Made by a program: the position numbers. A DNA stretch of 64,000 nt. It comes from Girardia tigrina. Lineage: Eukaryota. Below are positions 52,101 to 55,100 of the stretch, in pieces (positions within the stretch are counted from its first letter, which is position 1; every line of letters starts with the position of its first letter). The stretch spans positions 1 to 64,000 of the forward strand of contig MQRK01178878.1 in assembly GCA_001938485.1 (NCBI GenBank), written 5' to 3'.

Positions 52101-55100
52101 AACAAAAACAGCTATTTGAGAACAAAATGACATAAAATTCAAAAAATGAATATACAACAGAAAAATAACATTTATTAAAATTTAAAATTTTACATATATT
52201 AACACGTACATAAAGGACTACATCATTCAATGAAACCGCCATTAGCGGCAATAACGNNNNNNNNNNNNNNNNNNNNNNNNNNNNNNNNNNNNNNNNNNNN
52301 NNNNNNNNNNNNNNNNNNNNNNNNNNNNNNNNNNNNNNNNNNNNNNNNNNNNNNNNNNNNNNNNNNNNNNNNNNNNNNNNNNNNNNNNNNNNNNNNNNNN
52401 NNNNNNNNNNNNNNNNNNNNNNNNNNNNNNNNNNNNNNNNNNNNNNNNNNNNNNNNNNNNNNNNNNNNNNNNNNNNNNNNNNNNNNNNNNNNNNNNNNNN
52501 NNNNNNNNNNNNNNNNNNNNNNNNNNNNNNNNNNNNNNNNNNNNNNNNNNNNNNNNNNNNNNNNNNNNNNNNNNNNNNNNNNNNNNNNNNNNNNNNNNNN
52601 NNNNNNNNNNNNNNNNNNNNNNNNNNNNNNNNNNNNNNNNNNNNNNNNNNNNNNNNNNNNNNNNNNNNNNNNNNNNNNNNNNNNNNNNNNNNNNNNNNNN
52701 NNNNNNNNNNNNNNNNNNNNNNNNNNNNNNNNNNNNNNNNNNNNNNNNNNNNNNNNNNNNNNNNNNNNNNNNNNNNNNNNNNNNNNNNNNNNNNNNNNNN
52801 NNNNNNNNNNNNNNNNNNNNNNNNNNNNNNNNNNNNNNNNNNNNNNNNNNNNNNNNNNNNNNNNNNNNNNNNNNNNNNNNNNNNNNNNNNNNNNNNNNNN
52901 NNNNNNNNNNNNNNNNNNNNNNNNNNNNNNNNNNNNNNNNNNNNNNNNNNNNNNNNNNNNNNNNNNNNNNNNNNNNNNNNNNNNNNNNNNNNNNNNNNNN
53001 NNNNNNNNNNNNNNNNNNNNNNNNNNNNNNNNNNNNNNNNNNNNNNNNNNNNNNNNNNNNNNNNNNNNNNNNNNNNNNNNNNNNNNNNNNNNNNNNNNNN
53101 NNNNNNNNNNNNNNNNNNNNNNNNNNNNNNNNNNNNNNNNNNNNNNNNNNNGTAAGAGTAGCTTCTGCCATGTCTACCAGCAAAAATAAAATTATGTAAT
53201 TATAACACACAAAAAGATATGGTGTCTATATTACGTGTTCTCAAATAGCTGCCGCACCCTGTATAGTTTTGTAAATATCCGAAATATATTTTCAGTTGTA
53301 TTAATGTAAATTAATATTAACATATTTGATATTACTAGCAATAGTCAGTATTATATATATTTAATATTATCAAAATATAAAATATAAAACATTTTTTTAA
53401 TTACTTTATAAAATGTAACTCAATAAATGAAAACAGTTTTTTTCAGGGGTTATCAGCAAGGAGGAAGGTCTTCTCTTTCAGAGTCATCAATGTTTAAATA
53501 TTTTTTTATTTTAAATGTTTATATTGATCAAATAATTTCCCGTTAGTCCAAATAATTATAGTGTTAAACTAGATACAACTTGTAATGGATATTACAAAAC
53601 AGTAAATAAATTACGGTAAAAGTAAATAAAATTCTCTGTAGCTATCAAAAAAGAGACTGAAAATTCCACTTTTAGATATTTCATTTATTCTTTGAATTTT
53701 AAAATTAATGGAAAATGCCCTTTAAATTTACTGTCCCATTGATAATTATCAATTATAAAATAATATTTACTAAATGTATATATTTACTAATATTTACTAA
53801 ATGTATAAAAACATTTCAAACACATTCCAGAATCGTGCATATTGATAAATTGTTGTCATTCAGTAATTTACAAAGTAGCGGAGACATTTGTGGAAGATAA
53901 ATAATGTCTCAATTAAATCTCAACAATTGAAAATTTGACACCCAGGTACAAGAAAGTCAAATCATCGCACTTATTTGACAGTATTAAAGAAGTCATTCTG
54001 TGTCCGTTCAAGACCAATCGTGAATAATACACATGAAGGTCGAGATATATTTTGTGTTTGGTATATTTTCAAGAAGGACTCATTTCAATTTAAAGGCGAA
54101 TGAAATTTAAGATTATATAAAAATATAATTATATTAGTTGTACGTTAGCCGCATAATATTTGTATCTATCAGCTGCAGTAGTTGTACCTTGTACCCGAAG
54201 ATTTACAAAAAATAGATTCACAGAATAAATTTATTTATAATAAATGTAATTTATTTAACAATTATGATTTTTTATTCATATATTTAATTTGGAAGAATTC
54301 TATCCAATATGTAAATTAAATTATTAAGCCTTCTGAGTAGGGGAAAAATGGGAATTCTGCATCAATCGATAAATTTTCCAATAATCGTTATTACCATGAA
54401 AATGGTGACGTGACAATGGCAACAAACCATGGTAACCAATGAAATTGCTCGGTTATTATGGAAATCAGCACAGTAACCAATAAAAACGGAAATGGAAAAA
54501 TGTGATTGTGTTACCGATCTCCCCATAGGAGTCGAGTTCAAAATCTTATAACGTTGCGAAGGGATTCCAGTTACCATAGCAATAGATAAAGGTCAGCAAA
54601 CGTAGAGATGCCGTTTCCTAGGTCTTCGTCACCATAGCAACGGCTCCGATTGATAGCCTAGATACAATGACAAAGTTCGGAATTGGTTTTAAAGAAATAT
54701 TTATGATTGAATCTGAGAAGTCAGTGGGCAATATTGATAATCAAAGCCGCATAAACAAAGTCTTAAGATGTTTACATAAACAAAATTATTAATAAAATTA
54801 ATACAGAAATATGAAAAATTTTATGGCTTCAACATTAGATGTTGTACATTATATTATATATTATATAGATTGTAAAACATCACATCAGATCATCAGGTGT
54901 TCCAACTGCTTTAAATCAAAGATAATTGCATTCATCGATAACCAACACCGAGAAGACTGGTTTAAAACATTACACATGTACATTAAGGCTCCAGACTTTT
55001 ACCATCACAGTTTATTTGTCAATTTTATAAGTTTTTGGAAGATTTATCCTCTTTTAATTTTGACTTAAAATTTCAAAAAGAATCAAACAATACTAATGTA

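What the first reader, a model, noticed from the sequence alone, without database searches (positions are those of the whole stretch)
54378..54782. Dense RFX X-box / CCAAT / forkhead cluster: candidate motile-cilia enhancer
Seen: at least three strong and four weaker X-box palindromes (GTNNCCATRGNAAC-like) within about 250 bp, interleaved with three CCAAT boxes and a CRE-like TGACGT, then three RTAAACA sites. The spacers are not repeated, so this is not a satellite. Established: RFX with FoxJ1 drives motile ciliogenesis genes, typically through one or two promoter X-boxes. This cluster lies about 2.2 kb 3' of a SAXO-like axonemal exon, with no evident gene start nearby. Inference: a homotypic distal ciliary enhancer, or the promoter of an unannotated transcript.
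Basis: partly seen in the sequence, partly recalled or inferred. Interest (0 to 1): 0.7.

Follow-up and report, generated by a model that had tools for sequence, protein, structure and literature searches.

The report
Dense RFX X-box cluster beside axonemal gene
A 230-base stretch carries far more binding sites for RFX, the regulator of cilia genes, than chance allows and lies just downstream of a gene for a microtubule-binding cilium protein, so it is probably a switch for cilia genes, though that is untested.

Summary
Against GTNRCCNNRGYAAC, 54410-54641 has one perfect X-box (54628, the only one in 64 kb), two sites with one mismatch, two with two and four with three. Local shuffles never reach these counts (0 of 1000 each), nor do 300 whole-window shuffles. 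The most over-represented words in the core are all X-box pieces.

The three forkhead-type sites within 32 bp are also unusual (0 of 1000). CCAAT is marginal (45 of 1000) and TGACGT is at background (163 of 1000). Spacers are not repeated, and the core is single-copy in the window.

The neighbouring minus-strand exon (57444-56948, stop at 56945) is a terminal exon. It matches the repeat modules of Toxoplasma SPM1, which I recall as a SAXO relative (PDB, E=5.3e-6). No coding start, RNA family or Pfam domain lies between 53.3 and 56.9 kb.

Best reading: an RFX- and forkhead-bound regulatory module acting as a downstream enhancer of that gene. The rivals are a promoter of an unannotated transcript, a transposon-borne array, or chance. 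Binding, accessibility, conservation and genome-wide copy number could not be tested. It is a known kind of element with unusual site density.

The parts
54628..54641 (+). Perfect X-box GTCACCATAGCAAC, spacer AT
   Evidence: Only exact match to GTNRCCNNRGYAAC and to GTHNYYATRRNAAC in the 64 kb. The only site in the cluster that fits the published strict patterns.
54570..54583 (+). X-box with 1 mismatch, GTTACCATAGCAAT; left half perfect
54410..54423 (+). X-box with 1 mismatch, GTGACAATGGCAAC; right half perfect
54423..54436 (+). X-box with 2 mismatches, CAAACCATGGTAAC; right half perfect; abuts the previous site and runs into CCAAT
54464..54477 (+). X-box with 2 mismatches, ATCAGCACAGTAAC; right half perfect; runs into CCAAT
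54432..54626 (.). Four weak 14-mers with 3 mismatches, starting at 54432, 54452, 54510 and 54613. Individually they are at background level.
   Evidence: The window holds 218 sites with up to 3 mismatches.
54751..54782 (.). Three forkhead-type RTAAACA sites in 32 bp (54751 +, 54769 -, 54776 +). Two lie in a 10-nt direct repeat, CATAAACAAA.
   Evidence: (the only stretch in the window with 3 within 40 bp; 0 of 1000 local shuffles).
54378..54686 (.). CCAAT at 54378, 54436 and 54477 (+) and 54682 (-); TGACGT at 54406. Present but not clearly enriched.
   Evidence: CCAAT reached in 45 of 1000 shuffles, TGACGT in 163 of 1000.
54352..54751 (.). Local G+C rise (0.36-0.42) between flanks of 0.20-0.30, coinciding with the site cluster
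56945..57444 (-). Terminal coding exon of a SAXO/SPM1-like microtubule protein gene, the candidate target. It starts after a tttcag acceptor, reads 165 codons from 57442 to 56948, and ends at a TAA at 56947-56945. AATAAA hexamers follow at 56810-56805 and 56780-56775.
   Evidence: PDB phmmer match to Toxoplasma SPM1, E=5.3e-6, over repeated modules. One hit among 1.84 billion representative proteins, E=6.7e-4. Atlas leads to axonemal inner-protein families, scores 0.90-0.93.

Best explanation
The stretch 54410-54641 is a homotypic cluster of RFX-type X-box sites, and three forkhead-type sites follow about 110 bp further on. Together they form a cis-regulatory module of about 400 bp. I infer that dimers of the organism's RFX factor occupy the five better sites in cells that build cilia or flagella, and that a forkhead partner binds next to them. 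I further infer that the module acts from downstream on the SAXO/SPM1-like gene, whose last exon ends 2.2-2.3 kb away on the minus strand. It may do this by RFX-RFX contact with that gene's promoter, as proposed for Xenopus multiciliated cells.

Shown here: the sites, their excess over chance, their single-copy and non-repetitive nature within the window, and the identity and orientation of the neighbouring exon.

Inferred: binding, the cell type, the target gene and looping.
For: 1. Site excess. There are 3, 5 and 9 sites at up to 1, 2 and 3 mismatches, against shuffle means of 0.02, 0.26 and 2.07, reached in 0 of 1000 shuffles each. None of 300 whole-window shuffles reaches 3 or 5 sites per 300 bp. 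A Poisson extrapolation from the rest of the window gives 0.003-0.1 expected chance clusters of this joint strength per genome of 0.1-3 Gb.
2. The only perfect X-box in the 64 kb is here. All 3 CCATRGYAA words in the window are here, as are 4 of the 14 ATRGYAAC words.
3. An unbiased word count puts X-box pieces first: GGTAAC/GTTACC, ACCATG, CCATAG and ACCATAGC.
4. Four of the five better sites have the AT spacer, and all five have their better half on the same side.
5. The cluster sits on a local G+C peak as high as the neighbouring exon's.
6. The nearest recognisable host gene is a SAXO/SPM1-type microtubule protein. This is a class expected to be under RFX control.
7. Precedent from papers. 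Rfx2 binds promoters and enhancers equally, and distal elements with flanking Rfx motifs can be brought to promoters by Rfx dimerisation (PMC5245798, abstract and passages). Less than a third of mouse RFX peaks lie in promoters (PMC7498320, passage). Forkhead FKH-8 binds close to X-boxes at C. elegans cilia genes (PMC10393296, passages).
Against: - No binding, accessibility, expression or conservation data could be obtained.
- Only one of the nine sites meets the strict published Drosophila patterns. That paper warns that an X-box match alone does not predict RFX control (PMC2375033).
[quoted passage not shown] This cluster lies 3' of its candidate target.
- The promoter of the SAXO-like gene is not identified. 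Its upstream exons were not found in the window.
- The SAXO assignment rests on short repeat modules. Pfam gave no family at E up to 0.1, and two word-indexed searches found nothing.
- The chance estimate assumes a homogeneous background.
- The organism is unknown, so I cannot confirm that it has an RFX factor and a cilia-linked forkhead factor.
Confidence: 0.4

Rival explanations
1. The cluster is the promoter-proximal module of an unannotated transcript that starts at or beside it. The transcript could be on the plus strand, running towards and antisense to the SAXO-like gene, or on the minus strand, running towards 53.3 kb. It could be a non-coding RNA, or have a first exon too short or too divergent to recognise.
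For: RFX sites are classically promoter-proximal. All validated C. elegans X-boxes lie within 500 bp of the start codon (PMC3245922), and RFX peaks centre just upstream of the TSS (PMC7498320). Known multi-X-box cases are promoters with 2-3 sites. The G+C island resembles a promoter in an AT-rich genome. The uniform orientation of the stronger half-sites could reflect a directional element.
Against: No Pfam family reached its curated cut-off for 15 open frames of 45 aa or more between 53.7 and 56.9 kb. The only row was a sub-threshold PV_NSP1 match (E=0.036, 14.9 against 25 bits) for 54182-54319. There is no Rfam match at E up to 1 in 53152-57000 and no tRNA. The 85-aa frame that begins 29 bp after the last forkhead site gave only low-quality Atlas neighbours, sharing 132 of 256 features or fewer. 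The ATGs near the cluster open only short frames. Absence of a recognisable coding start does not exclude a non-coding or fast-evolving transcript.
Confidence: 0.2
2. The array belongs to, or descends from, a mobile element. One possibility is a block of short protein-binding repeats near a DNA transposon's end, which also shows several copies of a 10-14 bp motif separated by unrelated spacers. Another is a transposon that carries RFX sites. In either case the resemblance to a cilia enhancer is incidental, or the element was co-opted later.
For: The window is rich in transposons. Mariner is found at 1885-2409 and 48912-49698 (HTH_48 E=1.2e-18; Transposase_1 E=8.8e-26 and 3.5e-20), Tc1-like DDE_3 at 47037-47462, hAT at 59990-60223 and retroelement pieces at 15.7-17.2 kb. 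A transposon-like element ends only 1.1 kb to the left, near 53262. The stronger half-sites all point the same way.
Against: The core has no second copy in the 64 kb. No terminal inverted repeats or convincing flanking repeats surround it. No partner array exists in the window; the maximum elsewhere is 3 sites per 300 bp at up to 2 mismatches. The motif matches the RFX consensus exactly rather than being an arbitrary word. Genome-wide copy number could not be tested, because no collection of eukaryote genomes was available.
Confidence: 0.15
3. The cluster is a chance or neutral accumulation of X-box-like words with no regulatory role.
For: Taken singly, each criterion is expected a few times in a large genome: about 5 clusters of three sites (up to 1 mismatch) and about 6 clusters of five sites (up to 2 mismatches) per Gb. 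Only one site is a strict consensus match. Four of the nine sites are at background quality.
Against: The joint event is expected 0.003-0.1 times per genome of 0.1-3 Gb. No shuffle, local or whole-window, reproduces it. The cluster also coincides with a forkhead triplet unique in the window, a G+C island and an axonemal-type neighbour gene.
Confidence: 0.15

Closest known systems
RFX/Foxj1 distal elements of multiciliated-cell genes (Xenopus; Quigley and Kintner 2017, PMC5245798)
   Same: Rfx motifs and forkhead motifs occur together in a non-promoter position near a cilia gene. The proposed action is through RFX dimerisation with the promoter (abstract and passages).
   Different: This case has only sequence evidence. 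Five to nine X-box-like sites in 230 bp is a density not described in the passages I read. The organism is an unidentified AT-rich invertebrate-like animal, and whether it has Foxj1 is unknown.
Multi-X-box promoters of C. elegans DAF-19 targets (Chu et al. 2012, PMC3245922)
   Same: More than one X-box serves one gene. That paper suggests the extra sites tune expression level or repress (abstract; section 14 with Table 2).
   Different: Those cases have 2-3 sites within 500 bp upstream of a start codon. This one has 5 sites at up to 2 mismatches (9 at up to 3), no start codon nearby, and a position 3' of the candidate target.
Single conserved promoter X-box of Drosophila dRfx targets (Laurencon et al. 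2007, PMC2375033)
   Same: The 54628 site fits their least degenerate pattern RTNRCC N1-3 RGYAAC and the restricted GYTRYY N1-3 RRHRAC.
   Different: Their criterion was one conserved site upstream of the ATG in two species. Conservation could not be tested here, and the location rule is not met.
Vertebrate MHC class II X-Y module (RFX5 complex, CREB, NF-Y); recalled, not from a call
   Same: X-box, CRE-like and CCAAT words occur together.
   Different: CCAAT and TGACGT are at or near background and overlap X-box halves. There is no fixed order or spacing. The genome does not look vertebrate: 29% G+C, and the best named relatives of its Hey-like gene are only 41-45% identical. Rejected.

Membership tests
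RFX X-box site | Match to a published X-box consensus (RTNRCC N1-3 RGYAAC; GYTRYY N1-3 RRHRAC) | tested here: met
   54628 GTCACCATAGCAAC fits both patterns (patterns from PMC2375033). The other eight sites do not: they carry 1-3 mismatches to GTNRCCNNRGYAAC.
RFX X-box site | Located within a few hundred bp upstream of the start of a cilia gene (the C. elegans and Drosophila rule) | tested here: not met
   No start codon or recognisable first exon lies nearby. The cluster lies 2.2-2.3 kb beyond the stop codon of the nearest cilia-type gene.
RFX X-box site | Conserved in sequence and position at the orthologous locus of related species | not testable with these tools
RFX X-box site | Bound by an RFX protein, with target expression dependent on RFX | not testable with these tools
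   Needs ChIP, EMSA or a knockdown.
RFX plus forkhead ciliary enhancer | X-box and forkhead motifs located together, away from a promoter | tested here: met
   The X-box cluster at 54410-54641 and three RTAAACA at 54751-54782 are both above local chance, each reached in 0 of 1000 shuffles.
RFX plus forkhead ciliary enhancer | The target is a cilium or flagellum gene | tested here: inconclusive
   The neighbouring exon matches SPM1/SAXO-type repeat modules (E=5.3e-6; E=6.7e-4), but no Pfam family matches at E up to 0.1. That it is the target is an inference from distance alone.
RFX plus forkhead ciliary enhancer | Open chromatin, enhancer marks or looping in ciliated cells | not testable with these tools
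   No functional genomics data were available.
Homotypic cluster of transcription factor sites | Three or more sites for one factor within a few hundred bp, beyond chance, with unrelated spacers | tested here: met
Transposon-borne repeat array | Multiple copies; terminal inverted repeats or target-site duplication; a partner array at the other end | tested here: not met
   Within the 64 kb there is no second copy, no convincing inverted repeats and no partner array. The genome-wide test was not possible.
SAXO/SPM1 microtubule protein (the neighbouring gene) | Repeated Mn-type modules of the form P-F/L-x(3)-S/T-x-Y-x(2)-D/Q-F | tested here: met
   Residues 71-117 align to four successive modules of Toxoplasma SPM1 and to two regions of P0001. 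Three such motifs lie in the exon.
SAXO/SPM1 microtubule protein (the neighbouring gene) | Pfam SAXO1-2 (PF05217) at its gathering score; cysteine-rich N-terminus (the latter recalled) | tested here: not met
   No Pfam row for this family at E up to 0.1. Its one relative, P0001, reaches only 18.2 bits against a cut-off of 26.5. No upstream exon with such a motif was found in the window, so the N-terminus is missing here.

The most novel reading that the evidence does not exclude
This is a purpose-built high-occupancy RFX 'landing pad'. Five to nine X-boxes in 230 bp, all with the stronger half on the same side, plus a forkhead triplet, would act from the 3' side of an axonemal inner-protein gene as a loop anchor or super-enhancer. 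The published papers I read describe no such architecture: cilia genes there use one to three X-boxes, close to the start. If true, cooperative multi-dimer RFX binding would be a distinct way of driving very high, or very cell-specific, expression of cilium structural genes in an under-sampled animal lineage.
Probability: 0.25. Interest if true: 0.55.

Novelty: new member of a known kind. Interest (0 to 1): 0.4.

Why it matters
RFX control of cilia genes is usually described as one X-box close to the start site. A dense, directional array of X-boxes with forkhead sites, placed downstream of an axonemal gene, would test two ideas: that RFX dimers bridge distal elements to promoters, and that site number tunes output. 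It would do so in a lineage poorly represented in databases, where the best named relatives of a Hey-like gene are only 41-45% identical. The array also gives a compact 400-bp candidate for a cilia- or sperm-specific reporter. If it proves to be transposon-borne, it would instead be an example of mobile DNA spreading RFX sites.

Tried and rejected
- **Hidden gene in the 895-base N run (52257-53151).** Rejected as a likely target. The run is flanked by transposon-like ends: a TIR-like end near 53262, an ATG at 53171 on the minus strand, and a shared 16-mer at 52109-52124. The N runs at 49163-49370 and 49734-49902 also sit inside a mariner transposase. The N letters were not filled or looked up.
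- **Coding exon under the cluster.** The 76-aa minus-strand frame at 54362-54592 has no Pfam match. Its repeated 'MVT' residues are simply X-box halves read as codons.
- **Non-coding RNA gene.** Rfam gave nothing at E up to 1 for 53152-57000 and nothing at gathering score for the whole window. No tRNA was found.
- **A second SAXO-like exon at 55855 (-), 'STYKTQF'.** This is one loose-pattern hit with no clear splice sites. It is either chance or a relic.
- **Cysteine-rich SAXO N-terminus.** The only pattern hit above 53 kb (54757, minus strand) lies over the forkhead sites and has no start codon. I read it as chance.
- **DRE-like ATCGATA as a core-promoter sign.** There are 18 in the window against 11.5 expected, and 5 of 100 shuffles reach 18, so it is not informative.
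- **Word-indexed protein searches of the exon.** None scored in either length class.
- **Organism identification through the Hey-like frame.** Only distant named hits came back.
- **Literature on dense X-box clusters.** 'RFX + X-box + homotypic' returned 3 unrelated papers. 'multiple X-boxes + RFX' returned 0. 'RFX motifs + transposable elements + cilia' returned 2 papers, judged off-topic from their titles and abstract openings. These three searches are the whole basis for saying I found no description of such arrays.
- **A PWM built from published site tables.** Not done, because it would have meant typing many sequences from a paper. Published IUPAC patterns were used instead.
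Full report
**The window.** It is AT-rich, about 29% G+C, and has six N runs. It is full of transposon remains:
- mariner at 1885-2409 and 48912-49698 (Pfam HTH_48 E=1.2e-18; Transposase_1 E=8.8e-26 and 3.5e-20)
- Tc1-like DDE_3 at 47037-47462
- hAT pieces at 36952-37347 and 59990-60223
- retroelement pieces at 15.7-17.2 kb

It also holds a Hey-type bHLH-Orange frame at 23593-24450 (-) (HLH E=2.6e-15). The best named relatives of that frame are only 41-45% identical: tardigrades, a leech and a chimaera. 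One unnamed protein is 72% identical. I therefore take the source for an animal of a poorly sampled lineage, not human. The organism was not identified.

**The observation.** Against GTNRCCNNRGYAAC:
- 54628 GTCACCATAGCAAC is perfect, and is the only perfect match in the 64 kb.
- 54410 and 54570 have one mismatch.
- 54423 and 54464 have two.
- 54432, 54452, 54510 and 54613 have three.

Four of the five better sites have the AT spacer. All five have their better half (RGYAAC) on the right of the plus strand. All 3 CCATRGYAA words in the window are here, as are 4 of the 14 ATRGYAAC words.

**Is it more than chance?**
- In 1000 dinucleotide shuffles of 54378-54782, the means are 0.02, 0.26 and 2.07 sites at up to 1, 2 and 3 mismatches. 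The observed counts are 3, 5 and 9. No shuffle reaches any of the observed counts.
- In 300 shuffles of the whole window, done in 500-bp blocks to keep local composition, no 300-bp stretch reaches 3 sites (up to 1 mismatch; the maximum of 2 occurred in 3 of 300). None reaches 5 sites (up to 2 mismatches; the maximum of 4 occurred in 2 of 300).
- In the real window outside the region, the maxima are 1 and 3.
- A Poisson extrapolation from the rest of the window says either criterion alone would occur about 5-6 times per Gb. The joint event is expected 0.003-0.1 times per genome of 0.1-3 Gb.
- An unbiased word count of the core against the rest of the window ranks X-box pieces first at k = 6, 7 and 8.
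- Under the strict published Drosophila patterns, only the 54628 site qualifies (patterns read in PMC2375033). That paper also warns that an X-box match alone does not predict RFX control.

**The other motifs.**
- The three RTAAACA within 32 bp form the only such triplet in the window and are reached by 0 of 1000 local shuffles. Two of them lie in a 10-nt direct repeat.
- CCAAT is marginal: 4 observed against a mean of 1.44, reached in 45 of 1000 shuffles, with four other 3-in-105-bp groups in the window.
- TGACGT is at background, reached in 163 of 1000 shuffles.
- Two CCAAT are the tails of X-box halves (GTAACCAAT twice).
- TGACGT lies inside TGGTGACG, the reverse complement of the left flank of the perfect site. 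I read these as parts of the X-box array, not as separate boxes.

**Not a repeat.** Only the motifs recur; the spacers do not. The core and both flanks (53263-54377 and 54783-56944) have no second copy in the window, apart from a 44-nt match at 56583-56625. The cluster sits on a G+C peak of 0.36-0.42 between flanks of 0.20-0.30.

**Surroundings, right side.**
- The minus-strand frame at 56945-57478 has no methionine. It follows a tttcag acceptor, so the exon starts at 57444. It ends in a TAA at 56947-56945, with AATAAA hexamers 135-170 nt later. It is therefore a terminal exon.
- Residues 71-117 of its 165 aa align to four successive modules of Toxoplasma SPM1 in solved microtubule structures (E=5.3e-6). 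That SPM1 is the SAXO relative is my recollection.
- The full HMMER scan of 1.84 billion representative proteins found one relative, P0001 (E=6.7e-4). P0001 itself touches Pfam SAXO1-2 below its cut-off (E=0.0013).
- The Atlas neighbours are axonemal inner-protein families, with scores of 0.90-0.93. These are leads only.
- Pfam gave no such family for the exon, and two word-indexed searches gave nothing.
- 'SAXO-like' is therefore supported at the level of repeat modules, not as a proven family member. Its upstream exons were not found in the window.
- Only this single exon was searched.

**Surroundings, left side.**
- A transposon-like element ends near 53262 and contains the 895-base N run. 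Next to the run lie a TIR-like end, an ATG at 53171 on the minus strand, and a shared 16-mer at 52109-52124.
- The run was not filled. I do not think it hides the target gene, but I cannot show this.

**Between 53.3 and 56.9 kb.**
- None of 15 open frames of 45 aa or more reached a Pfam cut-off. The only row was a sub-threshold PV_NSP1 match (E=0.036) for 54182-54319.
- There is no Rfam match and no tRNA.
- The 85-aa frame just after the forkhead sites has only poor Atlas neighbours.

**Mechanism.**
- Most likely (0.4): an RFX- and forkhead-bound module acting from downstream on the SAXO-like gene. This follows the model in which Rfx2 binds promoters and enhancers equally and brings distal elements to promoters by dimerisation (PMC5245798, abstract and passages). 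Less than a third of mouse RFX peaks are promoter-proximal (PMC7498320, passage). In C. elegans, forkhead FKH-8 binds close to X-boxes (PMC10393296, passages).
- Promoter of an unannotated transcript (0.2). Validated nematode X-boxes lie within 500 bp of the start codon, and the known multi-X-box cases are promoters with 2-3 sites (PMC3245922, abstract and section 14).
- A transposon-borne array (0.15). This cannot be excluded without the genome.
- Chance (0.15).

Shown here: the sites, their excess, their uniqueness within the window, and the neighbouring gene's type and orientation. Inferred: binding, cell type, target gene and looping.

**Comparison and novelty.** It works like a known RFX/forkhead ciliary regulatory module. 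It fails the classical location rule for promoter X-boxes. It is denser than the multi-X-box promoters I could read about. My three literature searches found no description of such arrays, but they were narrow. I rate it a new member of a known kind, of moderate interest.

**What stayed unchecked.**
- All functional data.
- The supplementary tables of the cited papers, which may list further multi-site cases.
- The content of the N runs.

Noticed in passing
52109-53262 (N run 52257-53151 inside): A transposon-like element on the minus strand. It has a TIR-like end near 53262, an ATG at 53171 just before the N run, a frame ending just after it, and a 16-mer shared in inverted orientation at 52109-52124. 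The mariner-like reading is my own and was not tested. The N letters were left alone.
   Followed up: partly
50510-50744 and 51891-52127: A 237-bp direct duplication, 97.5% identical and 1381 bp apart. The right copy runs into the left end of the transposon-like element. Each copy carries the X-box-like word ATTACCATGATAAC, with 2 mismatches.
   Followed up: partly
23593-24450 (-): A Hey-type bHLH-Orange frame (HLH E=2.6e-15; Hairy_orange E=4.1e-5, just under its cut-off) with an intron-like interruption. The closest hit is an unnamed protein at 72% identity; named relatives are only 41-45% identical.
   Followed up: partly
55835-55855 (-): The motif 'STYKTQF', close to the 'TTYRTQF' module of the SAXO-like exon, lies 1.1 kb downstream of that exon's stop codon. 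It could be a relic of a duplicated module or chance. No clear splice sites.
   Followed up: partly
54410-54641: All five better X-boxes have their stronger half on the same side of the plus strand. Two are followed by the same word, GTAACCAAT. The directionality is unexplained.
   Followed up: partly
56583-56625 and 18246-18289: A 44-nt match at 95% identity, in the presumed 3' region of the SAXO-like gene. It may be a small dispersed repeat.
   Followed up: no
58675-59277 (-): A 200-aa open frame with a cysteine-rich stretch that reads to me like a GIY-YIG-type nuclease of a mobile element. Pfam gave nothing at its cut-off. It lies upstream of the SAXO-like exon, perhaps in an intron.
   Followed up: partly
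49163-49370 and 49734-49902: Two N runs fall inside a mariner transposase frame. Some masked stretches in this window therefore lie within transposon coding sequence.
   Followed up: no
10566-10811 (-): A frame ending in six tandem 'LYRGR' units, which points to a short tandem DNA repeat.
   Followed up: no
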